The notes under the pieces are model-generated. The model saw only the letters and a program-made list of their open reading frames with translations. It was not told where the DNA came from and ran no database searches. Source: Candidatus Heimdallarchaeota archaeon (lineage in GTDB: Archaea > Asgardarchaeota > Heimdallarchaeia > Heimdallarchaeales > Heimdallarchaeaceae). From it: a DNA stretch of 64,000 nucleotides. Shown piece after piece: positions 948 to 44,165 of the stretch; position 1 is the first letter of the stretch; every line of letters begins with the position of its first letter. Location: contig JAUVXV010000008.1 of NCBI GenBank assembly GCA_030603365.1, forward strand, positions 32,001-96,000, in the 5' to 3' direction. Both the position numbers and the translations under genes were made by a program.

Positions 948-2114
948 TTGGTTTTTAGAGATATGGATTATGATGTAGTCATTGCAGGAGGAGGTGTAGC
1001 AGGTTCTACAGCAGCTCGATTTTTAGCTGAATCTGGATTCAAGACGCTTTTTGTTGAAAGACACAAAACACCTAGAAATAAACCATGTTCAGGGATTCAA
1101 TTTGGATACTTTGAAAAAATCCTAGGTGTTAAAATTCCAAGAGAACGTTTGTGTAATATTGAACTTAAAAAAATTAAGATGTATCTACCAGATGGCAGTT
1201 CATTTGGTTCTCATTTCAAAATGTTCAATTTTATGAGAAAACCTTTCGATGATTGGTTAAATATTATAGCCCAGGATGCTGGTGCTGAATTTATTGATGA
1301 GTGTGTCTGCCAAAGTGTTGAAGAAAAAGATGGTTACAATAAAGTTACACTAGTGAAAACTAAAGAAAAAGAAACTGTTAATCTTACAGCAAAATATGTC
1401 ATAGATGCTTCAGGTCTTCGACCAAAGCTACGTAACCAAATTCGTCCTCAAGATTTCTCTTCCGACTTTCAGGGAGCAACATTGAATTACTACATTGATG
1501 GAGAAGCAGATTTAGACCCGGAAACTCTGTATCAATTCTGGAATATGGACTGGAACAATGCAATGTTTGCTTGGATCTATATTAAAACCTTAGATGATGG
1601 AAAAGACTATTGGGTTGTTGGTACAGGATACAATAATGATGATATAACAAAAAGACAAGAATTATTCTATACTGCAATGAAAGAAAAATTCAATATCACT
1701 GGTGAAATTGTTAAACGTGAGGGATATAAAACCTCAATGAATATGTATTCTAAGGACCGTGTATGGCTTGGGCAAAACAGGATTTTGATGGTTGGAGATG
1801 CAGCTGGTTTAGTTGATATGGTTAGAGGAGTAGGTATGGATGCAGCTGCTCTTTCAGGTCGGTTAGCTGCTAAAGCAATAATGAAGGCAGAGAAGAAAAA
1901 TTCTGAAGTATTGAAAGTTTATTCCAAATTCATGAAACGAGTAACTTCTCAAACAATCCGAAATCAGCAGAGAGAAATAAATATTTTCAAGACAAATGAA
2001 GAATTGCACACCTACATGAAGAAAAGTATGGTGAAAATGGGAATCAAGATGATACTACAGTCTAATCTCAATAAAATTCGTTCTCCAGAAAAACAAGTTT
2101 TACTCCCACAATAG
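948..2114 (+). CDS. Geranylgeranyl reductase-family FAD-dependent oxidoreductase
   Basis: DVVIAGGGVAG Rossmann motif, PRNKPCSG, VIDASG, LMVGDAAG. Confidence 0.85.
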   Translation: MVFRDMDYDVVIAGGGVAGSTAARFLAESGFKTLFVERHKTPRNKPCSGIQFGYFEKILGVKIPRERLCNIELKKIKMYLPDGSSFGSHFKMFNFMRKPFDDWLNIIAQDAGAEFIDECVCQSVEEKDGYNKVTLVKTKEKETVNLTAKYVIDASGLRPKLRNQIRPQDFSSDFQGATLNYYIDGEADLDPETLYQFWNMDWNNAMFAWIYIKTLDDGKDYWVVGTGYNNDDITKRQELFYTAMKEKFNITGEIVKREGYKTSMNMYSKDRVWLGQNRILMVGDAAGLVDMVRGVGMDAAALSGRLAAKAIMKAEKKNSEVLKVYSKFMKRVTSQTIRNQQREINIFKTNEELHTYMKKSMVKMGIKMILQSNLNKIRSPEKQVLLPQ

Positions 2115-2398
2115 TTTCTGTTTTCTCCATTTTAGATTTTTCAATATCACAACTTGTGTTCACAATATGTGAGCAAGTTACTTTTAAATAAGGACCTATG
2201 TTAGGACAGGTGCAAAAAATGCGAAAACCAACAAAAATAACTGAAAAAATCAAACAAGACTTAAAGAAGGAGAGACGAAATGCAATTAACTCTCTAATTA
2301 TGCTCAAAGGATCTCTCTTCTAACCTTTTATTTTATTCTTCTGTCTATGTAAAACTTAAAAGTAAGTCACTCTTTCTTTTACTGTATAAGGTGATTAT

Positions 2399-2935
2399 TT
2401 GGCTAGTCGAAAAACACATCTTTTTGGTGGCACTCTTTTTTGGGGCCTTGCAATAGGCATTTTCTATGCTCTTGATCTAAAAACCAGCTTTATTGATTTA
2501 GGTTTGTCAGGTACTATACCTGATTTAGAATTTCATTCTCTATGGATAGTATTATCGTTCATGGCGTGTCATTTTGGAGCACAATTACCTGATTATGATT
2601 TACTTTGGGATAAAATTCTACCTCACAGGAATGTTATAACTCATTCATTCTTCTTACCCTTAGTAATCTCAATTCCAATATTTTTTGTTCAAGAATCAAC
2701 ACAATTTCTTGTTCCAATTTACGCATTTTATCATATAGGACATGCATCGCATCTTTTCTTAGATTTAAAACCAAAAGATTGGAAAGGAACTGCTCTTGTA
2801 CATATTTTCTGGGCAAATGATAATGGAAGAAAAACTATGCCACCAAAAGTATCTAGATTATTTTTACTAATCAATGGTTTAATAGTTTTGTCAGCAGGTA
2901 TTATACTTCTATACTTCTTCCAACTGTGGATTTAG
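2399..2935 (+). CDS. YdjM-like membrane metal-dependent hydrolase
   Basis: N-terminal TH, LPDYD, HRNVITHS, SHLFLD motifs; hydrophobic segments. Confidence 0.75.
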   Translation: MASRKTHLFGGTLFWGLAIGIFYALDLKTSFIDLGLSGTIPDLEFHSLWIVLSFMACHFGAQLPDYDLLWDKILPHRNVITHSFFLPLVISIPIFFVQESTQFLVPIYAFYHIGHASHLFLDLKPKDWKGTALVHIFWANDNGRKTMPPKVSRLFLLINGLIVLSAGIILLYFFQLWI

Positions 2936-2983
2936 CAAACTTCTTCTTTTTTACTTTTTCTTTCTCAAATCAGTAGAAACAAA

Positions 2984-5284
2984 CTAGATTTTCTTCATTT
3001 CTTTCTCCTTAATTACAGCTAAACAGCTGTAGTAAAATCGATCAGTTTTATTAGAGTTCAAATATGTTTCAATTACCCTAGAAGCACTAAAACTTTGAGA
3101 TTTAATTAATGATCTGAGCATGATATCTGGAATCTTTCCATAAGTATCTTTTAACAAAGCCCACAAGAAAGTTGTATTCCTAGGAGAGGAGGAAATAAGT
3201 CGTAAAATCAATCTATTTACTTCAGTTTCATCCTTACTAGAAACTAGCTCTTTTATTAGAAGAAAACCCCAATAAAGTTTCTTCAGCTCTTCGTATTTCT
3301 CTACTAGTTCACTTGACCCTATTTTATAAATCATCAAACTTGCTGTAGTATCAGTTATAGATGTGGGGGCAGTATCAACCATTTTGAAGGGTGCAGACAA
3401 CACTTTCCAGTCAGGTTTGATTTCCCAAGGATATTTTACACCTATTTTCAAAAGTTGTTCTTGAATGAATAAGGAAATAGATTCTCTTTCTCCTAATTCT
3501 AAAGTCTGTGATTGTTTTAATAGTTGCTTCTTCAATTTATCTGAAACAAGATTAGTGCAAGCTAGATGTCTCTTTTCTGATGGACTTAGACTATCCATAA
3601 CCCATCTTATCATTACTCTATCCCATGTTTCTACTCTCTTTATTTGAGTGAAAACGGGTATACAACTCAACCAAAACCGTTTTTCAGAGGTAGAATCCAT
3701 ATAAAACTGCAATTTTCTACTGTTTTCAAGAGCTTTTGATCCTTTCAGAGTTCGGATTATATCCTCTGTTAAGAAATCAAATGCATTAAGATGCAATGTC
3801 AGTAACAGAGCTATTTCTTTAGGATCAACATTTGACCTTATTCTTTGTAGAACGTAATTACTGAAATTTTTTGATTCTTGCTTGTCGATTAGATTTTCTA
3901 TGTAATTTGGTATCCAAGTACTGATTTTCTGCTGCTTTAGTTTTCGAAGCAATTTCTTCTTTTTAGAATCAAAAACTATCATTGAGACTAAATAAGAATC
4001 TAAGTTTTTTAGTGAAGAAAGTTTTTCTGCTGAACTATATTCTCGAATTAATTCTTTCCAATTTACTTTAGGTAGAAAGGGATACTGAGCTATCTGATTA
4101 AGTTCATTCATCACGAAAAACTTGAGCATATTATTCTTAACTGCTGTTTTTGTAATATGATGGTTTTCTATCTTCTCTTCTACTAAAGTTTTCATCTTTC
4201 CTTTTAGAACATCTACTAGAATCAAATTATACATGAAAGAAAATTCTTCTTTGTTTTTCAACCATAAGGGAATTAACATATCCCATTTCCAGATAGTTAC
4301 AGGAAGAGTCAGAGGTAAATCTGTTAAGAACGCATCCCCTTCATCAAATAATATCTTAGTATTTCCATGCTTTAGAATTTGAATGTCCTTCTTTTTATTG
4401 AAGTACATATAGTAGAAGACATTCTTATTGAAAGAGATACTTTCAACTGTTTTTTCTTCATCATCTAATTGGATTTTGAATGGATTGTCTGTTTTAGGAT
4501 CATAGATGAACTTCTTTATGTTCTTTATTGAACAGTTGTAATTTGTATTAGATTGATTGAATTTCTCAATCATCTCCATTCTCATCTCAGCTGATAGTTC
4601 GGTGACTTCTCCTTTCTTCTTATGTTTGGGAGCTTTTCTATAAACGGTTGATCCTTCTGATACAAGCTTGTATAAAGTTAGCTTATTCCCAATTAGCTTA
4701 TTTAGATAAAGTGTCTCATTTACTAAGCTGCTATACCATTTAGAATTCATACTTGAAGCCTGGAGTAGAGAATGGTCTATAACTGAAACATATTCATTGT
4801 TTTCAAGATTTATTCCATTTATCTTGTAAATTTGACCATAGTATTTTCCAGAACCATAAGAAGATCGTCCTATACCTTGGATTTCTAAAGGAAGAAGCTC
4901 TAAAATATCTGTTTGCTTAATATTGATTGGTTTTAATAAATCACTCTTCTCTCTTCTGTTAAAGTCATTATGTTTGACAAACTTCGATTTGATAGTTATT
5001 ATAGTCTGATGGAGCATACTTGTTATTAAGGCCAATTCTTCTCTTTCCAATCTAGACCATTCTTTTTTGTTTTCTTTTATCAGGTCTAACAAGCCGTTGG
5101 TTTTTTCAGTTAAATACTTAAGATTTAGTTTTTCTATTTTTTCAAGGAAATCAGTCAATGCCTTAAGATCTGCCTTTTCTAAAGAATCGGCTCCTACTAG
5201 AATAATTTTCATAATTATATTTTCCAAAGGAGAAAATAGATCTTCAATCTGAAGTGTTTCTTGTGCTGTTATTGTCAGTTCCAT
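2984..5284 (-). CDS. Large hypothetical protein, last gene of MoxR/vWA cluster
   Basis: 766-aa ORF 1 nt downstream of the previous gene; no recognisable family motif. Confidence 0.7.
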   Translation of the reverse strand: MELTITAQETLQIEDLFSPLENIIMKIILVGADSLEKADLKALTDFLEKIEKLNLKYLTEKTNGLLDLIKENKKEWSRLEREELALITSMLHQTIITIKSKFVKHNDFNRREKSDLLKPINIKQTDILELLPLEIQGIGRSSYGSGKYYGQIYKINGINLENNEYVSVIDHSLLQASSMNSKWYSSLVNETLYLNKLIGNKLTLYKLVSEGSTVYRKAPKHKKKGEVTELSAEMRMEMIEKFNQSNTNYNCSIKNIKKFIYDPKTDNPFKIQLDDEEKTVESISFNKNVFYYMYFNKKKDIQILKHGNTKILFDEGDAFLTDLPLTLPVTIWKWDMLIPLWLKNKEEFSFMYNLILVDVLKGKMKTLVEEKIENHHITKTAVKNNMLKFFVMNELNQIAQYPFLPKVNWKELIREYSSAEKLSSLKNLDSYLVSMIVFDSKKKKLLRKLKQQKISTWIPNYIENLIDKQESKNFSNYVLQRIRSNVDPKEIALLLTLHLNAFDFLTEDIIRTLKGSKALENSRKLQFYMDSTSEKRFWLSCIPVFTQIKRVETWDRVMIRWVMDSLSPSEKRHLACTNLVSDKLKKQLLKQSQTLELGERESISLFIQEQLLKIGVKYPWEIKPDWKVLSAPFKMVDTAPTSITDTTASLMIYKIGSSELVEKYEELKKLYWGFLLIKELVSSKDETEVNRLILRLISSSPRNTTFLWALLKDTYGKIPDIMLRSLIKSQSFSASRVIETYLNSNKTDRFYYSCLAVIKEKEMKKI

Positions 5285-5285
5285 T

Positions 5286-6554
5286 TTATCTACTCCTAAA
5301 TTTCATTTGATTTAAGGAGAAATCACATGCTTCTATTATTCTATAATCTGAGAGCATAACACCTAAAGGCCAGATCCCACTGATAGGCCAAAATGACATA
5401 TTTCCATCAGAAGCGATTCTTGCTTGTCCGAAAATCCAAGGTGGAAAGGTTTCAGAACTAATCAAATCCTTAAAAGTCTCAATAGTGTAATGATTTCTTC
5501 CCTTATCAGATATAGTTACATCCATGGAATTGTAGTTCTTGTCATATACTTTGAAGGAGTAAGTTCTTTCTATATCATCATGTTTCATCTCTGAGAACCG
5601 TTTGATTTTAAATAACCCAAACAGCTGGGGGAAGAGGGAGAGACCTTCTGATTCTATATTATGAATATGTTCCTGGACTTCTATCCAATCATCGTATTTG
5701 ATTGTTTTAAATTTGCTAGAGATCCAAGGAAGAGCTTTGTATCTGAAAAGTTTAAGATACTTTCCAAGAGATAGTTTTGATGGATAAGCTTGGGTTATTT
5801 TTGCATTCCAGATTTGAAACGAAGCACTAGTAAATTCGTTCATTGAGATGTCAGAGTTTGTATTAATGTTGAGAATGGTTTCAATATTTCTCAGCTCACT
5901 GTTTGCTGAGGAAGATGATGATCTTCGACTTCGTCTATACCTATTTCTGTCCATATATTTCATTGCAGTCAAAGGTCTAGCATTTGTTGCAGCAATAATT
6001 TGTCTATTACTCAAATCATAGAGATAAGCTGTAACTCCTACAAAACCAGATTCTGTCATCCACCCACTAACTCCCAAGGTTTGAGCTATAATCTTCTTGT
6101 ATTCTTTCTTTTCATCTTGAGTGCCAGTAAGAAGTTTTATCAAGCGAGGAGACAGTTGCTTACCATTTTTGTAGTCTCTAATTGTTTTACAAGTTATAGC
6201 TATTCTAGATAAGATAGAAGTTATTCTGCTAAAATTAAATGTCGGATCTTTGTTGAGATAAAGTTCCATAATCTTTTTGAGCGATTGTATATCGCGTTCA
6301 AGTCTTGCTACTTTTGTCGTATGAGCAGTTATAATCAAAGCCTGTAATTCATCTAGGTTCTCTTTTGATATTCTTTGCACACCGTTCAAAAAAACTTTAC
6401 TAAACCAATCATTGATTTTGTTCAAAGCTGTTTCTATATTTTCAGGTAATTCAACAGGTTGAATTATTTCTTCCTCAGTCTCTTCAAGAATCGAGAGATC
6501 CAATTCGGGGAGACTATTTTCTTCTTTTACTTGTATATTCTGTTCAGTGTTCAT
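5286..6554 (-). CDS. Hypothetical protein resembling the non-SWIM part of YehQ-type proteins
   Basis: 422 aa; LGVSGWMTESGFVGVTAYLYD segment; lies right after the vWA gene, where yehQ lies in yehLMPQ. Confidence 0.5.
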   Translation of the reverse strand: MNTEQNIQVKEENSLPELDLSILEETEEEIIQPVELPENIETALNKINDWFSKVFLNGVQRISKENLDELQALIITAHTTKVARLERDIQSLKKIMELYLNKDPTFNFSRITSILSRIAITCKTIRDYKNGKQLSPRLIKLLTGTQDEKKEYKKIIAQTLGVSGWMTESGFVGVTAYLYDLSNRQIIAATNARPLTAMKYMDRNRYRRSRRSSSSSANSELRNIETILNINTNSDISMNEFTSASFQIWNAKITQAYPSKLSLGKYLKLFRYKALPWISSKFKTIKYDDWIEVQEHIHNIESEGLSLFPQLFGLFKIKRFSEMKHDDIERTYSFKVYDKNYNSMDVTISDKGRNHYTIETFKDLISSETFPPWIFGQARIASDGNMSFWPISGIWPLGVMLSDYRIIEACDFSLNQMKFRSR

Positions 6555-36790: not shown

Positions 36791-37684
36791 ATGTCAGAAG
36801 AAGACAAAGTTCCCAAAACAGCTCTAAATCTAATGTTGGAATTAATTGTGGGTAGGAAAAAAGAACTCAAATTGATGATTAGAGCAGTTGAAAAAGGTTT
36901 ACCAATCATTATTGAAGGACCAGTGGGGACAGGAAAAACAGAAATGGCTAAAGCATTAGCCAGCAGTCTCGACAAACTATTCGTCCGAGTTGATGGGGAT
37001 GATAGTCTTACATCCATTAAACTGAAAGGTTGGTATGACCCTCCTCTTGTTATAGAAAAAGGTTTTTCTAGAGAAACTTTCATTCCAGGCCCATTAACCC
37101 AGGCAATGGAAGAAGGAGGGATTTTCTTCTATAATGAAGTTAATAGAGCCCCCTCAGAAACAATTAATGCAGTGTTAACAGCTCTAGATGAGAATCTTAT
37201 TACTATTCCACAGTTAGGAGAGATAAAAGCCAAAAAAGGTTTCATTTCAATTTTCACTTATAATCCACAAGATACTGTTGCTACCAATCCTTTGCCCAAA
37301 GCATTCTATGATAGATGTGTATGGATCAATGTTACTCATCAAACTTTAGAGGAAATGCTACAGATTGTTAAATTAAGAACAAATTCAGAAGATTCACTTC
37401 TTAATCAAATCTCTTGCGAAATTGTTGAAGCTACATTGAATCATCCTGAACTTGAATATGGTTCAACAGTAAGAGGAGCTATTCAATTAGTAAGTCTTTT
37501 ACTAGGAGAAGAGAAACTAGAGGAAGAAATCCTGATTACCTATGTAATTTCAGTTCATTCGAGAAAAATACGGTGTAAAACAACAAGTCGAAAAACAGAG
37601 GAAGAAATAATCATTGAAATCGTTTCAAAGATATTGTCAAAGTATGATGATAACGATAGAATTTCACGAAAAAAAGAGAATTAG
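36791..37684 (+). CDS. MoxR/CoxD-like AAA+ ATPase
   Basis: EGPVGTGKT, PGPLTQAM, NEVNRA, TYNP, FYDR. Confidence 0.88.
   Translation: MSEEDKVPKTALNLMLELIVGRKKELKLMIRAVEKGLPIIIEGPVGTGKTEMAKALASSLDKLFVRVDGDDSLTSIKLKGWYDPPLVIEKGFSRETFIPGPLTQAMEEGGIFFYNEVNRAPSETINAVLTALDENLITIPQLGEIKAKKGFISIFTYNPQDTVATNPLPKAFYDRCVWINVTHQTLEEMLQIVKLRTNSEDSLLNQISCEIVEATLNHPELEYGSTVRGAIQLVSLLLGEEKLEEEILITYVISVHSRKIRCKTTSRKTEEEIIIEIVSKILSKYDDNDRISRKKEN
37669..37675 (+). other. Candidate -1 frameshift/slippage site A-AAA-AAA
   Basis: CGA AAA AAA GAG AAT TAG at the end of the ATPase; the -1 frame is open from 37660 straight into the vWA ORF. Confidence 0.45.
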
Positions 37685-37752
37685 GTGACCTTATTTCTTC
37701 CATTGTAGGGGATGAACCTTTTCTTACTTTTCCTTCCAAGCATGCAGGCAGA

Positions 37753-38709
37753 ATGCTTCTTAATGAGATATATTTAGAGCTAGGAAGGCAAGTTGAAGAT
37801 ATTACGAGAATTATTGAATTAGCTGAACAAGCCGCAGATGAAGCAAATTTAGAAGGTCTTCAGTTAATTGCAACCAATTATCCCCTAATTGCTGCACAAA
37901 TCCTTAACAAAATAGAATTAACAGAACAAATGCTAGATGATTTAGGTAGTGATGAGCTAATCCAGCTTTATTCTCGAACTAAGAAACATCTTAATTTTGG
38001 AATTCGGAAAAAAATGCTAGATAAATTAATACCATTTATAACAGAAAAGGCTAAATCAATTTTCAGAAGAGGGATATCATCTTCAGTTTCTAGATACATC
38101 AATTATGAACCAGGAGATTCTTGGGAAGTAGAGATGACAATTGAGAAGATGTTAGGTCTAGGAAAAACATCTCCAGATTATGAAAGTATTGTAGTGAAAG
38201 AACCTTCCAAAAGGAAGAAGAGTATTGTAATATGTATCGATAGAAGTATGAGTGTTCTTCAGCTCATCCACCAAATTGTACTCATGGCATCAGTTCTTTC
38301 TCTTTCAGTAAAACGAGATAATTTTGCAATTATTGAATTTGATTCTCAAGCTCATGTTATCAAGAGTATGTCAGAAGGTATCCATCCAGAAGCACTTGTG
38401 GAGCTGATCTTAAACATAGACAGTGGAGGAAAAACAAATCTTGAAGAAGCTTTGAGTTTAGCAACTGAACAATTGAAATTTAGCACTTCTAGAGAAAAAA
38501 TAATCTATCTGATAAGTGATTTGGAAAGAACAGCGGGAAGAAACCCTTTACCCATCATTCAGAGAATACCCGATTTGCGAATAATCTATGTAAAGACCTA
38601 TCGAAGAGTTTCGTTTGTAGATGAGGTAGTAACCCTATCCAATGTTTCTTTTGAAGAGTTGAACCAGAATTCAGATTTGGTGGATATTACAACTAGGTTG
38701 GTTGCTTAG
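37753..38709 (+). CDS. vWA domain protein (frame is open upstream to 37660)
   Basis: MIDAS DRSMSV, FDSQA, GGKTNL..AL, LISD. Confidence 0.85.
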   Translation: MLLNEIYLELGRQVEDITRIIELAEQAADEANLEGLQLIATNYPLIAAQILNKIELTEQMLDDLGSDELIQLYSRTKKHLNFGIRKKMLDKLIPFITEKAKSIFRRGISSSVSRYINYEPGDSWEVEMTIEKMLGLGKTSPDYESIVVKEPSKRKKSIVICIDRSMSVLQLIHQIVLMASVLSLSVKRDNFAIIEFDSQAHVIKSMSEGIHPEALVELILNIDSGGKTNLEEALSLATEQLKFSTSREKIIYLISDLERTAGRNPLPIIQRIPDLRIIYVKTYRRVSFVDEVVTLSNVSFEELNQNSDLVDITTRLVA

Positions 38710-40042
38710 GCTTCTTCTTATTTTGCAGATGAGCTAATATCTGATCAGCCACTATCATCGCAACACCAATTCCATCAAGAATTCCTCCTTCTATTTGAGC
38801 TATATCTCTGTTCATTACATAACTAATAGTAATTTTAGCGTTATATATGTAAGACTCTGTTAAATTCCATTCATCTACAAGAGTTATCAGATATATTATA
38901 GTCGTTTCTTCAGTTGCATTGAAAACTAGTGTTGTTCCATTTAGTACTTCTTCATGTATAAATCTTAATTCAAAGTAACTCTCTTGTTTAGTTTGATTTA
39001 CAAGAGAGAAATACGAACTTAACAGCTGATTATACGTTATATTCCCCGCATAATATACCTGCGTAAGGTTATCAAAATCAGTAAAGAAATTGATGAAGGT
39101 GTTATTATTTGTTAACATAACAGAGGCATTATATTTTATCAAATCCATCGCACTACTAAATTTAACAGTAGTACTTGCGTGGGTTTTACTCTCAATTATC
39201 ACACCAAGCGTTGGATCAAATATCGTCTGCGTACTTCGATATCGAGATGAAACATTATATTTCATCTCCTTGTCATTACCAACTATAGGGCCTAGTAAAA
39301 GACCTACGAAAATGACAAACAAGCCAAGAAGTGTTAAATGTCTTTTTAGCCTCCCCCAGAATGTTTTGAAAACCAAATTGAATCGCTTTTTATCAGGTTT
39401 TTCTTTCTTACTTTTTCTTTTGAAAGCCGGTATAACAAATACAATGAACCAAACAACAAATAGAATTACGTGTAATGTAAATTGAGCGATGTATAGATCA
39501 ATATAATCCCCGTATATTGCTTGACGTTGTTCTTGTGATAAATTGATGAAATAGATTTGCTGTCCTTCACTTAGTGAGTATATCGTCCAATCTGGAATTA
39601 TTCCTACAAGAGTTAATGGGAAGAACAACCAAGATGCATTTTCAAACCTGAGATAGATAGAAAGGTCATAAAGATTAGGATCTACTGGCCAGAAAAGCAA
39701 AAGAGGCCCCCAGCTCAAATCTAGAAATATATGAATTAACCACATTAAAGATACAAGTTTTACAAATCTGACTATTCGTTTAGTAGGGGTATCTATAAGA
39801 TTGACATCTTTATTTACTTTTTCAATAATTAACATACTGAAAATAATAAATGTTGGGATAATCAGACTATGAGTGTAGGAACGATGCGAACCAAAAAACA
39901 AATCGATATCAGGAAACATCGCAAATAAACAGATTACAATATATTCCCATCGGTGTTCTTTGTAGTAATTTTTATTCTCTTTAGATAGAAGCATCCATAC
40001 AATTAAACCTTGTAATGATAAATGTGTAGGAGTATATGTCAT
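38693..40042 (-). CDS. YdjM-like membrane hydrolase with long C-terminal extension
   Basis: TH, FPDIDL, HRSYTHS, HIFLD, LFWP; extra TMs and an extracytoplasmic domain. Confidence 0.75.
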   Translation of the reverse strand: MTYTPTHLSLQGLIVWMLLSKENKNYYKEHRWEYIVICLFAMFPDIDLFFGSHRSYTHSLIIPTFIIFSMLIIEKVNKDVNLIDTPTKRIVRFVKLVSLMWLIHIFLDLSWGPLLLFWPVDPNLYDLSIYLRFENASWLFFPLTLVGIIPDWTIYSLSEGQQIYFINLSQEQRQAIYGDYIDLYIAQFTLHVILFVVWFIVFVIPAFKRKSKKEKPDKKRFNLVFKTFWGRLKRHLTLLGLFVIFVGLLLGPIVGNDKEMKYNVSSRYRSTQTIFDPTLGVIIESKTHASTTVKFSSAMDLIKYNASVMLTNNNTFINFFTDFDNLTQVYYAGNITYNQLLSSYFSLVNQTKQESYFELRFIHEEVLNGTTLVFNATEETTIIYLITLVDEWNLTESYIYNAKITISYVMNRDIAQIEGGILDGIGVAMIVADQILAHLQNKKKPKQPT

Positions 40043-40211: not shown

Positions 40212-43200
40212 ATGGTCATCGATATGCAATCTAGTCCTAGTGAGAGGTTTAGGGAGTTCCTACAAGCCTATCAAGACGAAAACGGAAGACACATCTATAT
40301 TGAACAAGTACAAAAAATGTCTTTAGAAGGACTAACTTCTCTTTATGTTAACTACGATGATTTATTACGTTTTGACCCGGAAATTGCTAGAAATTTGAAA
40401 GAAGATCCTGAAGAGACTATCAAAGCAGGAGATGATGCTCTTATAGATGTTCTAAAAATCGAAGACCCAGTGTATGCATCAAGTGGAGAAGTTTTCCATA
40501 TACGTATTTCAAACATTCCTGATCAAGTAGATTTACGAAGACTAAGATCTGTTCATCTGGGTGAGCTAATCTCTGTTGAAGGAATAATCATACGTCAAAG
40601 TGTTGTCAAACCTTTACTTATCCAGGGTGTTTTTCAATGTGTGCGATGCGGTGAAGTTCATTACATTAATCAAGAAGGTGGATACTACTCAGAGCCTACT
40701 AAATGTGTCAATCCTAACTGTGGAAAAAACGGTCCTTTCTCACTCTTAACAGAGGAATCAACCTATACAGACCTGCAAACGGTTACCGTTCAAGAAAAAC
40801 CAGAAACGCTCCCTCCAGGACAGATACCACGTTCGGTACCCGCTAGACTTGTAGGAGATCTTGTAGATACTGTAAGAGCAGGTGATAGAGCTATTGTTGC
40901 TGGAATTCTGCGAATGAAAGTTAAGGGAAAACAAAGGGGGAAGCTAGCTACTTTTGATCCATGGTTGGATGTGAATTATGTTTCCTCTCGAGAAAAAGAA
41001 TATGAAGATATTGATATAGATCCAGATACTGAACAGGAAATACTAGACATTTCCACCGATATAAACGTTCATAGAAAAATAATCAGATCTGTTGCGCCTT
41101 CAATTTACGGAATGGAAGTTATTAAAGAAGCTTTAATAACAGTGCTTTTTGGAGGAGTTCACAGAGTCGCTCCTGATGGTATGAAACAGAGAGGAGAATC
41201 CAACTTATTAATGATAGGAGACCCTGGAGTAGCTAAATGTGTAAAACCAGGAACAGAAGTTGTTCTAGAGAATGGTGAATTGAGAAAAATTGAGGATATA
41301 GTTGAGGAAAAACTACAATCCAACTCACACAAAGTAGATGATGGCTTTTATGCAACTGGAGAACAACCGATATTGACTATGAATAAGAGTGGTAAAATCG
41401 AAACAGCTAAGTCAAACCTCTTCTGGAAAAGAACTGCTCCCAAGTTAATGTATAAAATCAAAACAGCTTCTGGAAGAGAGATAACAGTTACACCAACTCA
41501 TCCATTTTTTGTTACAGAGAATGGGTATATTCAATCAAAAGAATCCCAGAAAATTAAGGTCGGAGATTTTATTGCTACACCTCGAATCATTACTGTAAAA
41601 GCAAATGAGAACTTAGATATTGATGTAAAAAAGGGACGAACAAGTGCTCAACACATATCTCTTCCAACAGCTGTAACCAAAGAATTAGCTTGTTTCTTAG
41701 GATATATATGTGGAGACGGGTATGTTCAAAAATCAAAATCATCAAGATATACGTGGTTTACTAATACTGATCATATAATCATCAATGATTACATCAAGTG
41801 TCTTACAGGTTCTTTTGGTAATATTAAGTATACAATTCGAGATGGTAGAAAAGGAAAAAGAGCAAAAGATATCTATGTGTCATCCATAGAATTAGGTAGG
41901 TTCTTGGAAAAAGTATCTCCTTCATTTTATGAGGGTGCACTAAATAAAATAATTCCACCAATTATCATGAGGGCTCCAAATTCAGTCATCAAAGAGTTTG
42001 TGAGAGCTTACTTCAATTTAGATAGTACAGTTAGTAAAGAAAGATGCACAATTTCAGCTACTTCTTCAAGTGAAAAACTTCTAAAAGACATGCAATTTCT
42101 ACTAACAAGGTTAGGAATTATTTCTCAAATTGGTTTTACACACTCTAAAAGTCAAACTTCACCAAAAAGGAAATATTATAGATTGAAAATCACTTCATCT
42201 GAACAATTTCAGAGATTTAGAGAAATTATTAGCCTAGACTCGTACAAAGGGGAGAGACTAAAGAAGGAAAAGAAATCAAATACAAATCAAGATATTATAC
42301 CAGGAGTAGGAGAGTTACTTAAGAAGATTCGTAACTCATTGAATTTATATCAAAGACAAATGGGAATTACCAGATCTACATATCAGCACTATGAAAGGGG
42401 AGATAGAAATCCTTCAAGAAAGTCACTGAAAATTATTGTAAACGAGCTGAAAAATCATACGATTTCAGAAGATATTGAAAGATTGGAAAAACTAGTACTA
42501 TCTGATATTTTTTGGGACAGAATTCTAAATATTGAAAAAATCAAACCTGAATTTGAGTGGGTTTATGATTTACAAGTACCAGATACCCACAATTTCATCG
42601 CAAATGGTATTATAATACACAACAGTCAACTCCTGCAATACGTATATAGGCTAGCTCCAAGAGGACTTTTAACTTCTGGTAAAGCAAGTTCAGCCGCAGG
42701 TCTTACAGCTGCTGTGATTCGGGATCCAGAGACAGGAGAGTTTGGTTTAGAAGCTGGTGCTTTGGTACTAGCAGATAGGGGAGTTTGTTTGATCGATGAA
42801 TTTGATAAGATGAATCCAGTAGATAGGTCCTCCATTCATGAGGCGATGGAACAACAATCTTATCATCCAAGTTTTGAAATTTCTCTCTTAAACGGTCAAA
42901 AACGACAAATTGGGAAATTTGTAGATGATCTATTCAATGATAATAATGAAATTAAAATCAAAGGTAAAGACTGTGAAATTCTTTCAGTAGAAAATCTTGG
43001 TTTCAATGTTTTAACTACAGATTTCAAGAAGATTTATGATACAAAAGTAAATCGAGTTAGTCGTCATATGGCTCCTGATAACTTTGTTAAAATTAGTTAC
43101 TCAAACAATTCAGAAATAATAGTAACTCCTGAACACCCGATTTATGTGATTCAAGAGGGGGAGATAATTACTCTCGATGCTGAAACTATAAATGTGGGGA

Positions 43201-44165
43201 TGTATGTTCCAAGTGAATCAAACAATCATTTAGAATTAGAGAAAATAAAAATATGTAATATAGAGATTCTGAAAAATGATGGTGATCTAAAAACTAAATG
43301 GGTTTATGATGTTACAATTGAACCAACAGAGAATTTCATATCTCATGGACTTGTTCTTCACAACACAGTAAGTATAGCCAAAGCTGGTATTGTCGCTACA
43401 CTCAATGCACGTGCGGCTATTATTGCAGCTGCCAATCCTCGTTTTGGTCGTTATGAGGATACTCGTCCCCCCGTAGAAAATATTAACCTTCCATCTACAA
43501 TCTTATCGAGATTTGATTTGATTTTTGTCATAAAAGATGAACCTGATGAAGACATTGATCGCAAGATGGCTAGACACATTTTAGAGCTTAGAAGAGGTCA
43601 TGTACTTGAGGAAGCTGAACCTCCGATATCAATGGATATTTTAAGAAAATACATAAGCTATGCTAAACAACATGTTGAACCCTCTCTTACTGATGAAGCA
43701 ATGGAGAGAATAGAAAAATTTTATCTTGACTTAAGAAAAGAAACTGATGATACAACTGCTATAGCTATTACTCCACGATATCTTGAAGCAATCATTCGTT
43801 TGTCTGAAGCTCAAGCGAGGATGGCTCTGAAAGAAGATGTAACTATAGACCATGTAGAAGCAGCAATAAACCTTCTCAAAACATCTTTGGAGCAAGTTGG
43901 AAAAGACCCTGTAACTGGTCGAGTTGATATAGATTTCATTCTATCTGGAACAACCAAATCTTCAAGATCTAAGATGCAAACAATCATTGACATTATCAAA
44001 GAAGAGTCAAAGCTAGGAAGTTCTGACATCGTATCTGTAAAGAAGGTCAAAGAGCTGGCTAAAGAGCAGAATGTAGAAGAAGACTTTGTTGACAAAGTAA
44101 TTCTTCAGCTTAAAAGTAACGGAGAGATCTATACTCCTCGAGATGGTTTTGTCAAACTAGCCTAA
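40212..44165 (+). CDS. mcm: Replicative helicase MCM containing two inteins (686 aa after splicing)
   Basis: CxxC..C....C zinc finger, GDPGVAK/SQ Walker A, AAGLTA, IDEFDKM, AAANP, SRFDL, C-terminal winged helix. Confidence 0.97.
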   Translation: MVIDMQSSPSERFREFLQAYQDENGRHIYIEQVQKMSLEGLTSLYVNYDDLLRFDPEIARNLKEDPEETIKAGDDALIDVLKIEDPVYASSGEVFHIRISNIPDQVDLRRLRSVHLGELISVEGIIIRQSVVKPLLIQGVFQCVRCGEVHYINQEGGYYSEPTKCVNPNCGKNGPFSLLTEESTYTDLQTVTVQEKPETLPPGQIPRSVPARLVGDLVDTVRAGDRAIVAGILRMKVKGKQRGKLATFDPWLDVNYVSSREKEYEDIDIDPDTEQEILDISTDINVHRKIIRSVAPSIYGMEVIKEALITVLFGGVHRVAPDGMKQRGESNLLMIGDPGVAKCVKPGTEVVLENGELRKIEDIVEEKLQSNSHKVDDGFYATGEQPILTMNKSGKIETAKSNLFWKRTAPKLMYKIKTASGREITVTPTHPFFVTENGYIQSKESQKIKVGDFIATPRIITVKANENLDIDVKKGRTSAQHISLPTAVTKELACFLGYICGDGYVQKSKSSRYTWFTNTDHIIINDYIKCLTGSFGNIKYTIRDGRKGKRAKDIYVSSIELGRFLEKVSPSFYEGALNKIIPPIIMRAPNSVIKEFVRAYFNLDSTVSKERCTISATSSSEKLLKDMQFLLTRLGIISQIGFTHSKSQTSPKRKYYRLKITSSEQFQRFREIISLDSYKGERLKKEKKSNTNQDIIPGVGELLKKIRNSLNLYQRQMGITRSTYQHYERGDRNPSRKSLKIIVNELKNHTISEDIERLEKLVLSDIFWDRILNIEKIKPEFEWVYDLQVPDTHNFIANGIIIHNSQLLQYVYRLAPRGLLTSGKASSAAGLTAAVIRDPETGEFGLEAGALVLADRGVCLIDEFDKMNPVDRSSIHEAMEQQSYHPSFEISLLNGQKRQIGKFVDDLFNDNNEIKIKGKDCEILSVENLGFNVLTTDFKKIYDTKVNRVSRHMAPDNFVKISYSNNSEIIVTPEHPIYVIQEGEIITLDAETINVGMYVPSESNNHLELEKIKICNIEILKNDGDLKTKWVYDVTIEPTENFISHGLVLHNTVSIAKAGIVATLNARAAIIAAANPRFGRYEDTRPPVENINLPSTILSRFDLIFVIKDEPDEDIDRKMARHILELRRGHVLEEAEPPISMDILRKYISYAKQHVEPSLTDEAMERIEKFYLDLRKETDDTTAIAITPRYLEAIIRLSEAQARMALKEDVTIDHVEAAINLLKTSLEQVGKDPVTGRVDIDFILSGTTKSSRSKMQTIIDIIKEESKLGSSDIVSVKKVKELAKEQNVEEDFVDKVILQLKSNGEIYTPRDGFVKLA
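41238..42623 (+). mobile_element. Intein 1 in MCM Walker A (462 aa) with LAGLIDADG endonuclease and HTH insert
   Basis: K/C...TPTHPF...LGYICGDG...VYDLQVPDTHNFIANGIIIHN/S. Confidence 0.93.
42858..43364 (+). mobile_element. Intein 2 in MCM: 169-aa Ser-initiated mini-intein
   Basis: EAMEQQ/SYHP...VTPEHP...VYDVTIEPTENFISHGLVLHN/TVSIAKAG. Confidence 0.92.

What the first reader, a model, noticed from the sequence alone, without database searches (positions are those of the whole stretch)
36791..38709. Candidate programmed -1 frameshift joining a MoxR/CoxD-like AAA+ ATPase to its vWA partner
Seen: the ATPase ends CGA AAA AAA GAG AAT TAG, so an A-AAA-AAA heptamer (37669-37675) sits two sense codons before its stop. 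The vWA ORF is in the -1 frame. That frame opens after a TAG at 37657-37659 and runs KKRELGDLISSIVGDEPFLTFPSKHAGR into the annotated Met at 37753 with no ATG/GTG/TTG, so the 68-nt gap looks coding. A possible stem-loop follows (TTCTTCC..GGGGATGAA, about 37695-37716). Known: frameshifted chlD/cobalt-chelatase genes make both a short AAA+ subunit and a long AAA+-vWA subunit from one gene. Inference: this locus could make a 297-aa ATPase plus a roughly 639-aa ATPase-vWA fusion at a set ratio, extending that recoding logic to a MoxR system in a probable Asgard archaeon. Alternative: GGTGA at 37684-37688 is an SD-like motif 4 nt before an in-frame ATT (37693), so a non-canonical start is also possible.
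Basis: partly seen in the sequence, partly recalled or inferred. Interest (0 to 1): 0.8.

Follow-up and report, generated by a model that had tools for sequence, protein, structure and literature searches.

The report
Conserved frameshift joining ATPase and vWA
In this Heimdall-group Asgard archaeon an AAA+ ATPase gene and the vWA gene behind it are very probably one recoded gene: some ribosomes slip back one base on a strictly conserved A-run in front of a conserved, kink-turn-shaped RNA hairpin, which would give both the ATPase alone and an ATPase-vWA fusion. No RNA or protein data confirm this yet.

Summary
The ATPase ORF (36791-37684) ends ...CGA AAA AAA GAG AAT TAG. The vWA ORF is in the -1 frame, which is open from 37660.

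- All 50 unfused orthologous loci (Heimdallarchaeia genomes plus metagenome contigs) have an in-phase A_AAA_AAN heptamer.
- In 47 of 50 the 0-frame stop follows within 0-2 codons.
- The vWA frame is always -1. Seven loci have no ATG within 120 codons of the slip site, and one has no ATG, GTG or TTG.
- Synonymous-site conservation across the whole gene peaks at the heptamer.
- A 3' hairpin lies 6-8 nt downstream.
- The predicted fusions (626-657 aa; 639 aa here) match natural in-frame fusions (613-638 aa).
- One relative encodes a separate short ATPase next to a fused ATPase-vWA gene.

In the window's family the hairpin has a 2x5 internal loop (GA / RAUGA) that fits the k-turn consensus.

The proteins are NorQ/NorD-like (MoxR class), not ChlD. 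The published precedent for this logic is the frameshifted chlD gene. I found no paper on this case. This scan has reported the same system before, in other Asgard genomes. Everything here is inferred from sequence.

The parts
36791..37684 (+). 0-frame ORF: AAA+ ATPase of the AAA_5/MoxR class, 297 aa (the short product). Walker A GPVGTGKT is at 36917-36940. The Walker B-like motif is IFFYNE.
   Evidence: AAA_5, 76.7 bits; best single-domain PDB match is NorQ, 47 bits.
37669..37675 (+). Slippery heptamer A_AAA_AAA (X_XXY_YYZ phase), the proposed site of tandem -1 slippage.
   Evidence: Invariant in 23 of 23 genus loci. In phase in 50 of 50 unfused orthologous loci. Synonymous-site conservation peaks here.
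37676..37683 (+). 8-nt spacer between the heptamer and the hairpin. It holds the first two bases of the 0-frame stop codon TAG (37682-84).
   Evidence: spacers of 6-8 nt in all k-turn-type loci.
37684..37718 (+). 3' hairpin with a k-turn-type internal loop. NC helix: GGU 37684-86 with ACC 37716-18. Non-bulged GA: 37687-88. C helix: CCUUAU 37689-94 with GUAGGG 37705-10. Loop: 37695-37704. 3-nt bulge: GAU 37711-13. Bulged-strand GA: 37714-15.
   Evidence: 95.8% of cells paired, against 25-60% when slid; 3 pairs changed on both sides; a model built from the genus finds the site in g10, g12, L028 and L025; pattern in 29 of 29 loci of this type. The consensus is taken from PMC5061560 and PMC4382518.
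37675..37752 (+). The -1-frame linker (RELGDLISSIVGDEPFLTFPSKHAGR). It has no start codon of its own and is translated only by ribosomes that have shifted. It is predicted to be disordered in the protein.
   Evidence: amino acids are conserved with synonymous changes in the -1 frame, while the 0 frame is full of stops; pLDDT 47-59 for residues 1-30.
37753..38709 (+). The vWA part as annotated (318 aa from the ATG): a helical N-domain plus a vWA domain with an intact MIDAS motif (DxSxS at 38239-38253, plus T259 and D287 in P0002 numbering). With the linker and the ATPase it forms the predicted 639-aa long product.
   Evidence: invariant D194, S196, S198, D287; AF2 pLDDT 90; top structural matches are the NorD vWA domain in NorQD complexes.

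Best explanation
The two ORFs are one recoded gene. Most ribosomes read the 0 frame and stop at TAG 37682-84, which gives a 297-aa AAA+ ATPase. A fraction slips back one base on A_AAA_AAA (37669-75) and reads on in the -1 frame through a 26-codon linker into the vWA domain. That gives a 639-aa ATPase-linker-vWA protein (...ISRKK|RELGD...).

The slip is promoted by a hairpin that starts 8 nt downstream. In this family the hairpin carries a k-turn-type internal loop. By analogy with NorQ6-NorD1, CbbQ6-CbbO1 and ChlI/ChlD, the long form would tether one vWA/MIDAS adaptor to a ring built mostly of short subunits, and the slip rate would set the ratio of the two.

Shown by sequence comparison: the heptamer, the phase, the lack of a start codon, the coding linker, the hairpin, and the fused homologues. 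Inferred: that the shift is ribosomal, its efficiency, the ring make-up, k-turn folding, and any role for L7Ae. The cellular substrate is unknown.
For: (1) 'RGA AAA AAA GA' is invariant in 23 of 23 genus loci at 66-84% protein identity.

(2) All 50 unfused orthologous loci have an in-phase heptamer and the vWA ORF in the -1 frame. They cover genera g1, g10, g11 and g12, a second family (g14), and 5 metagenome contigs. The heptamers are A_AAA_AAA in 42, A_AAA_AAC in 7 and A_AAA_AAU in 1.

(3) The 0-frame stop follows within 0-2 codons in 47 of 50 loci.

(4) Seven loci have no ATG within 120 codons after the slip site, and L052 has no ATG, GTG or TTG. Three genus orthologues lack the 'annotated' Met.

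(5) Synonymous-site conservation over the 696-column codon alignment is highest at the slip site: 0.86 against a mean of 0.55 (sd 0.08).

(6) A 3' hairpin lies 6-8 nt downstream. In the window's family and two metagenome lineages the C-helix takes many different sequences (for example CCUUAC/GUAGGG, CUCUAUC/GAUAGAG, CUCCUCUUC/GAAGAGGAG, CUUUAUAG/CUAUAAAG). In g14 it is a conserved GCGGGA..UCCCGC hairpin.

(7) The predicted fusions of 626-657 aa align end to end with natural in-frame fusions of 613-638 aa. The natural fusion in G025 reads PKKR where the shifted product reads RKKR.

(8) G025 encodes a 277-aa ATPase (52% identical) next to a 638-aa ATPase-vWA fusion, which are the two predicted products as separate genes.

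(9) Precedent: fs-chlD genes use poly-A -1 frameshifting, and A_AAA_AAA gave 10% in E. coli (PMC3711429).
Against: - No transcript, ribosome-profiling or protein data exist for any of these uncultured organisms.
- The window's own hairpin is thermodynamically weak: -12 kcal/mol, z = -0.86 against shuffles.
- The k-turn nucleotides also encode the conserved residues G-D and D/N-E/D-P, so RNA and protein constraints are entangled.
- The related genomes are not independent samples.
- Three loci with A10-A11 runs lack a hairpin (L029, L058, L059) and may use another mechanism.
- Transcriptional slippage would give the same protein.
Confidence: 0.85

Rival explanations
1. Transcriptional slippage. 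RNA polymerase adds one A in the A7 run, and the A8 mRNAs encode the same 639-aa fusion in frame.
For: The slip site is a homopolymeric A-run. Loci without a hairpin have long runs: A10 in L029 and L058, A11 in L059. In fs-chlD reporters efficiency rose with the number of As (PMC3711429). The protein product would be identical.
Against: Eight of 50 loci have only A6, as A_AAA_AAC or A_AAA_AAU. That is a good ribosomal heptamer but short for polymerase slippage. The run keeps the X_XXY_YYZ phase in 50 of 50 loci, which polymerase slippage does not need. A conserved hairpin 6-8 nt downstream is the hallmark of ribosomal -1 frameshifting.
Confidence: 0.07
2. Two separate genes. The vWA protein is started independently or by termination-reinitiation, for example from the SD-like GGTGA (37684-88) with a non-canonical start such as ATT 37693, or from ATG 37753.
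For: GGTGA matches the archaeal anti-SD and is conserved within the family. An ATG at 37753 is present in most genus orthologues (column 27). Gene callers annotate 314-331-aa vWA proteins.
Against: - ATT 37693 occurs in 2 of 19 orthologues.
- The Met is replaced by Leu in L012, L013 and L015.
- Seven loci have no ATG for 120 codons, and L052 has no canonical start at all.
- The linker upstream of the Met is under purifying selection in the -1 frame.
- GGTGA is absent from g14, where the heptamer, phase and hairpin persist.
- This reading does not explain the invariant in-phase heptamer or the fused homologues.
Confidence: 0.04
3. A broken gene or an assembly error: an originally fused gene with a 1-nt deletion in a homopolymer.
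For: Homopolymer runs are prone to indels, and natural in-frame fusions exist.
Against: The same frame break at the same heptamer occurs in 50 independent assemblies from at least six genera. Both halves are under purifying selection, and neither frame carries other disruptions.
Confidence: 0.01

Closest known systems
Frameshifted chlD (fs-chlD) genes of Mg/Co chelatases (Antonov et al. 2013, PMC3711429; Kuznetsov et al. 2022, PMC9227772)
   Same: One gene gives a short AAA+ subunit and a long AAA+-linker-vWA subunit by a -1 frameshift on a poly-A heptamer near the end of the AAA+ module. Annotators split it into two adjacent genes. In-frame fused homologues exist. Archaeal examples exist (Methanococcales).
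   Different: The AAA+ family differs. Here it is AAA_5/MoxR class: the Pfam Mg_chelatase score is 16 bits, below its 20.3-bit cut-off, and TIGR02031 scores 25.9 against a cut-off of 499.55. No CobN/ChlH was found in the 89%-complete genome. The lineage is Asgard. There is a conserved 3' hairpin with a k-turn-type loop, which the parts of those papers that I read do not describe.
NorQ-NorD, and the related CbbQ-CbbO and RavA-ViaA MoxR AAA+/vWA pairs
   Same: An AAA_5/AAA_3 ATPase sits next to a vWA protein with an intact MIDAS motif. The best single-domain PDB sequence match of the ATPase is NorQ. The best structural matches of the vWA model are the NorD vWA domains in NorQD complexes 9qhe, 9qhd, 9qh8 and 9qh6. 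The chain counts of those entries fit six NorQ chains to one NorD.
   Different: Those pairs are separate genes with their own starts, and no recoding is known for them. The window has no nor, cbb or other client genes; the neighbours are an HDAC-like protein, an MFS/Atg22-like protein, a YdjM-like protein and MCM. Sequence identity is low (17% over the vWA domain). The Walker B motif is N-E, not D-E.
Kink-turns bound by L7Ae-family proteins (Kt-7, box C/D k-turns; SECIS elements with SBP2 in Sec recoding)
   Same: A 3-nt bulge is followed by tandem G.A/A.G pairs between a Watson-Crick C helix and an NC helix. The window reads GGG-GAU-GA-ACC / GGU-GA-CCU, against GGC-GAA-GA-ACC / GGG-GA-GCC in Kt-7. 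The 3b.3n pair is A-U or G.U, a class that does not fold in Mg2+ alone but folds with L7Ae (PMC4382518). SECIS elements show that a k-turn-type element can act in recoding.
   Different: The element lies inside a coding region, 8 nt after a slippery heptamer. I found no report of a natural k-turn as a -1 frameshift stimulator. Folding and L7Ae binding are untested, and coding constraints overlap the motif.
Midasin/Rea1 (eukaryotic AAA_5 ring with a C-terminal MIDAS domain)
   Same: AAA_5 modules are joined to a single tethered MIDAS/vWA domain. The ATPase matches midasin AAA modules (133 bits in total), and the Rea1 MIDAS domain is among the fold matches (rank 23).
   Different: Each midasin module scores only 30-37 bits, below NorQ's 47 bits, so no special kinship is shown. 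Midasin is one 4,700-4,900-aa chain with six fused modules.

Membership tests
-1 programmed ribosomal frameshift cassette | A slippery heptamer X_XXY_YYZ in the phase of the upstream frame | tested here: met
   A_AAA_AAA at 37669-75 is in phase. An in-phase A_AAA_AAN is present in 50 of 50 unfused orthologous loci.
-1 programmed ribosomal frameshift cassette | The downstream ORF is in the -1 frame, open across the slip site, with no conserved start codon of its own | tested here: met
   The ATG is absent for 120 codons in 7 loci. Three genus orthologues lack the Met.
-1 programmed ribosomal frameshift cassette | A 3' stimulatory RNA structure about 5-9 nt after the heptamer, supported by covariation | tested here: met
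   The spacer is 6-8 nt. 95.8% of cells are paired, against 25-60% when slid. The C helix differs between lineages. The window's own hairpin is weak in energy (z = -0.86).
-1 programmed ribosomal frameshift cassette | A trans-frame protein is detected, and it depends on the heptamer | not testable with these tools
   The organisms are uncultured and no proteome or reporter data are available.
fs-chlD / ChlD-BchD chelatase medium subunit | An AAA+ module of the ChlI/ChlD (Mg_chelatase) family | tested here: not met
   PF01078 scores 16 bits against a 20.3-bit cut-off. TIGR02031 scores 25.9 against 499.55. AAA_5 scores 76.7 bits.
fs-chlD / ChlD-BchD chelatase medium subunit | A large CobN/ChlH subunit in the genome | tested here: not met
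   PF02514 was not found in the own genome, which is 89% complete. The control genomes gave matches.
MoxR-class AAA+ / vWA pair (NorQD-like) | An AAA_5/AAA_3 ATPase with a Walker A motif | tested here: met
   (GPVGTGKT). The Walker B acidic pair is N-E.
MoxR-class AAA+ / vWA pair (NorQD-like) | An adjacent vWA partner with a MIDAS motif (DxSxS...T...D) | tested here: met
   D194, S196, S198 and D287 are invariant and T259 is nearly invariant in 55 sequences. The fold is closest to the NorD vWA domain.
MoxR-class AAA+ / vWA pair (NorQD-like) | A client operon, such as norCB for NorQD or rubisco for CbbQO | tested here: not met
   The neighbours are an HDAC-like protein, an MFS/Atg22-like protein, a YdjM-like protein and MCM. 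Neighbours differ in L025-L029.
Kink-turn RNA motif | A 3-nt bulge followed by tandem G.A/A.G pairs, flanked by a Watson-Crick C helix and an NC helix | tested here: met
   The sequence pattern is present in 29 of 29 loci of family f1 plus L025 and L028, and in 0 of 20 g14-type loci. The consensus comes from PMC5061560 and PMC4382518.
Kink-turn RNA motif | A kinked 3D fold, with or without L7Ae binding | not testable with these tools
   This needs FRET, EMSA or a structure. Two L7Ae-family genes are present in the genome.

The most novel reading that the evidence does not exclude
The stimulator is a true k-turn that folds only when L7Ae, a ribosomal and sRNP protein, binds it. This is suggested by its 3b.3n pair (A-U or G.U), a class shown not to fold in Mg2+ alone. 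The frameshift rate would then be protein-controlled, and the ratio of short ATPase to ATPase-vWA fusion would follow free L7Ae. It would be the first natural k-turn/L7Ae-dependent -1 frameshift and a trans-acting-protein frameshift switch in a cellular archaeal gene. The resulting ring of about five short subunits and one long one, carrying a single tethered MIDAS domain, would have the layout of eukaryotic midasin built from separate subunits.
Probability: 0.25. Interest if true: 0.88.

Novelty: new variant of a known kind. Interest (0 to 1): 0.72.

Why it matters
Documented programmed frameshifts in cellular archaeal genes are few. From my own knowledge the main cases are Sulfolobus fucA1 and the fs-chlD genes of Methanococcales. 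This one would be deeply conserved in Heimdallarchaeia, the Asgard group nearest to eukaryotes. It would extend the 'one gene, short AAA+ plus long AAA+-vWA' logic from chelatases to the MoxR/NorQD class.

It has a practical side. Genome annotations split the gene in two and start the vWA protein at arbitrary codons, so the real subunit (about 639 aa) is missing from protein databases.

If the hairpin is a working k-turn, it would be a new class of frameshift stimulator and a possible link between L7Ae levels and recoding. The same system has already been reported by this scan in other Asgard genomes, so this window adds a further, well-supported member and not a first sighting.

Tried and rejected
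- SD-plus-ATT initiation was rejected, because the ATT and the Met are not conserved and many loci have no start codon.
- ChlD membership was rejected.
- A special kinship with midasin was considered after a total E-value of 1e-37, then dropped. Each module scores 30-37 bits, below NorQ.
- Rfam gives nothing near threshold over 37500-37900.
- The bacterial promoter and terminator scan was uninformative for an archaeon. It found no + strand terminator between the ORFs.
The single-protein scan found only six close loci, but it gave the organism names.
- A degenerate Walker A is not a general feature of fused forms. It occurs only in the G025 fusion, which has a separate ATPase beside it.
- The predicted fusion protein itself could not be folded, because a -1 joined sequence is not accepted by the structure tool. 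Only the -1-frame part was modelled.
- Literature searches combining frameshifting with MoxR and von Willebrand, with Asgard and archaea, or with kink-turn and L7Ae found no report of this case.
Full report
**Observation.** The sequence is as described. The 297-aa ORF 36791-37684 ends TCA CGA AAA AAA GAG AAT TAG. The A7 run (37669-75) is in the phase A_AAA_AAA, and the stop is at 37682-84. The next ORF (ATG 37753 to 38709) is in the -1 frame. That frame opens after TAG 37657-59 and has no ATG, GTG or TTG before 37753. Pfam gives AAA_5 (76.7 bits) for the first protein and VWA_2/VWA for the second. A7 runs are common and even depleted in this AT-rich window: 59 against 102 +/- 15 in shuffles. 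The run alone therefore means little, and the case rests on comparison.

**Within the genus.** Twenty-three same-genus genomes hold the orthologue. Matches in the vWA frame reach query residues 1-3, which lie upstream of the Met, and the open frame is 348-352 aa everywhere. In all 23 loci 'RGA AAA AAA GA' is invariant, the 0-frame stop follows 1-2 codons later, and the -1 frame opens 3-6 codons before. The linker KKRxLGDxxSxIVGDEPF is conserved in the -1 frame with synonymous changes, while the 0 frame is full of stops. Three orthologues (L012, L013, L015) have Leu where the window has its 'start' Met. In a 19-sequence codon alignment of the conceptually joined gene, pairwise synonymous-codon identity averages 0.55 (window sd 0.08). 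The highest 9-codon window of the whole 696 columns starts 2 codons before the second Lys codon (0.86), and the next highest is the 5' end of the ATPase gene.

**Beyond the genus.** A search of 400 Asgard genomes found orthologues (E <= 1e-25) in 48. They fall in the window's family f1 (genera g1, g10, g11 and g12, but not g13), in f2 (one genome) and in f5/g14 (20 of 22). None was found in the other families. Relatives of the window are titled Candidatus Heimdallarchaeota. A search of 1.8 billion representative proteins gave only 11 hits at E <= 1e-30. They are a mix of 'unfused' vWA proteins of 314-331 aa and fused AAA-vWA proteins of 613-635 aa. I examined the junction in 50 unfused loci: 23 from g1, 4 from g10-g12, 18 from g14 and 5 metagenome contigs.
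- Every locus has the vWA frame at -1 and an in-phase heptamer: A_AAA_AAA in 42, A_AAA_AAC in 7 and A_AAA_AAU in 1.
- The 0-frame stop is within 0-2 codons in 47 of 50.
- Seven loci have no ATG in the -1 frame for 120 codons, and L052 has no ATG, GTG or TTG at all.

Eight loci have only six As but keep a canonical heptamer, and the phase never varies. Both points argue for ribosomal slippage over polymerase slippage.

**Fused homologues.** Conceptual -1 products are 626-657 aa (639 aa here: 295 residues plus 344). They align over their full length with natural in-frame fusions of 613-638 aa. In genome G025 a 277-aa ATPase (52% identical to the window's, Walker A intact) is followed directly by a 638-aa ATPase-vWA fusion. 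The fusion is 34% identical to the window's ATPase and 32% to its vWA protein, and its Walker A is degenerate (GRSGSGKR). G025 thus encodes the two predicted products as two genes, the ChlI/ChlD arrangement. At the homologous point the fusion reads CCG AAA AAA CGC (PKKR), and the shifted product reads RKKR.

**RNA structure.** Folding of all genus sequences gives the same two-helix hairpin. For the window it is GGU 37684-86 with ACC 37716-18, and CCUUAU 37689-94 with GUAGGG 37705-10. On the 23-sequence alignment 95.8% of cells pair, against 25-60% when partners are slid. Three pairs show changes on both sides, and RNAalifold recovers the structure. The window's hairpin is weak on its own (-12 kcal/mol, z = -0.86). 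The same layout in L025 (-21.6, z = -3.2) and L028 (-11.8, z = -3.6) is strong.

The C helix differs completely between lineages: CCUUAC/GUAGGG, CUCUAUC/GAUAGAG, CUUAG/CUGAG, CCCU/AGGG, CUCCUCUUC/GAAGAGGAG and CUUUAUAG/CUAUAAAG. The internal loop stays GA on the 5' strand and RAUGA on the 3' strand (29 of 29 loci of this type, spacer 6-8 nt). A covariance model built from the genus alone finds the element at the homologous site in g10 (E = 5e-7), g12 (6e-6), L028 (0.007) and L025 (0.011). In the 64-kb window it finds no other match below E = 0.05. The g14 clade and L026/L027 instead have a plain GC-rich hairpin, mostly (G)GCGGGA-N4-6-UCCCGC(C), 6-7 nt after the heptamer. Three loci with A10-A11 runs (L029, L058, L059) have no hairpin.

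[quoted passage not shown] The window's loop fits it. The bulged strand is GGG-GAU-GA-ACC and the other strand is GGU-GA-CCU. Kt-7 has GGC-GAA-GA-ACC and GGG-GA-GCC (PMC4382518). The 3b.3n pair here is A-U (G.U in six relatives). That paper classes Watson-Crick and G-U pairs at this position as poor folders in Mg2+ alone that still fold when L7Ae binds. The genome has two L7Ae-family genes. This makes an L7Ae-assisted stimulator plausible, but it is inference only.

The same bases encode G-D and D/N-E/D-P, so protein constraint cannot be fully separated from RNA constraint. Three points favour an RNA constraint:
- The AF2 model places residues 1-30 of the -1-frame product in a low-confidence, probably disordered linker (pLDDT 47-59, against 90 overall).
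- The natural fusions P0010 and P0014 lack this segment.
- The Asp/Asn codon at the bulge is always GAU or AAU, never GAC or AAC.

**What the proteins are.** The ATPase's best single-domain PDB match is NorQ (47 bits). Midasin scores 133 bits only by adding modules of 30-37 bits each. The vWA model's top structural matches are the NorD vWA domains in NorQD complexes, whose chain counts fit six NorQ to one NorD. The MIDAS motif is intact. The pair is not ChlD: the Mg_chelatase and TIGR02031 scores are below their cut-offs, and no CobN/ChlH was found in the genome. The neighbours (an HDAC-like protein, an MFS/Atg22-like protein, a YdjM-like protein and an intein-bearing MCM) give no clue to a client, and they differ in other loci.

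**Mechanism proposed.** Tandem -1 slippage of the two Lys-tRNAs occurs on A_AAA_AAA, promoted by the hairpin 8 nt downstream and perhaps by the nearby stop. It yields mostly the 297-aa ATPase and a minority of the 639-aa fusion. By analogy with NorQ6-NorD1 and ChlI/ChlD, the long form would join a ring of short subunits and bring one vWA/MIDAS adaptor. A_AAA_AAA gave 10% frameshifting in E. coli for an fs-chlD cassette (PMC3711429), the right order for about one long subunit per hexamer. The ring make-up, the efficiency and the client are all inferred.

**Known or new.** The recoding logic is published for chlD (PMC3711429, PMC9227772). My literature searches found nothing on frameshifting in MoxR/vWA pairs, on Asgard cellular frameshifts, or on a natural k-turn as a frameshift stimulator. 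The notes of this scan show that follow-up agents have already described the same system, including the k-turn, in other Asgard genomes. I reached both readings before opening those notes (note), and the Antonov 2013 reference came from them. I rate it a new variant of a known kind.

**Rivals.** I considered three: transcriptional slippage (0.07), independent or re-initiated translation (0.04), and a broken gene or assembly error (0.01). The evidence for and against each is given in the rival explanations.

Noticed in passing
L061 (G000:C14:24500-30000), minus strand; ATPase at L061:2907-3833, vWA at L061:1828-2847: A second, paralogous AAA_5 ATPase/vWA pair in the same genome also has the vWA ORF in the -1 frame. 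The ATPase ends GA_U_UUU_UUC_UAG. The -1 arrangement holds in six other genomes of the order, but the heptamer is canonical in only some (UUUUUUC, UUUUUUU). Others read UUUUAUA, UUUUCAC or UUUUCUC. Several have a hairpin followed by CUGAUGA, which again looks like a k-turn.
   Followed up: partly
L021 (G025:C74), 1895-3811 and 3820-4653, minus strand: A relative has a two-gene layout: a 277-aa ATPase with an intact Walker A, followed 8 nt later by a 638-aa in-frame ATPase-vWA fusion whose Walker A is degenerate (GRSGSGKR). Other natural fusions (P0010, P0014 and further ones) keep an intact Walker A.
   Followed up: yes
L028 (JGI 3300041085 contig), 2072-5983: One metagenome contig carries the frameshift-type pair (A8 run and a k-turn-type hairpin), directly followed by a separate 618-aa fused AAA-vWA paralogue and two Arf/Ras-family GTPase genes.
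   Followed up: partly
L029, L058, L059: The three loci without a 3' hairpin have the longest A-runs (A10, A10, A11). In two of them the 0-frame stop is 5 codons away. The mechanism may have changed there, for example to run-length-driven or transcriptional slippage.
   Followed up: no
window 40212-44165 (+): A 1317-aa MCM helicase gene is interrupted by intein sequence (Intein_splicing, LAGLIDADG_3 and HTH_3 domains inside the MCM P-loop region).
   Followed up: no
window 36791-37684; P0001 residues about 111-118: The Walker B region reads IFFYNEVN (Asn-Glu, not Asp-Glu). The same N-E or Q-E pair occurs in the relatives P0004, P0003 and P0014.
   Followed up: partly
window, whole: A7/T7 runs are under-represented in the window (59 against 102 +/- 15 in dinucleotide-preserving shuffles), which suggests selection against slippery homopolymers in general.
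   Followed up: no
window 38693-38709: The 3' end of the vWA ORF overlaps by 17 nt the 3' end of the convergent 449-aa YdjM-like gene (38693-40042, minus strand).
   Followed up: no
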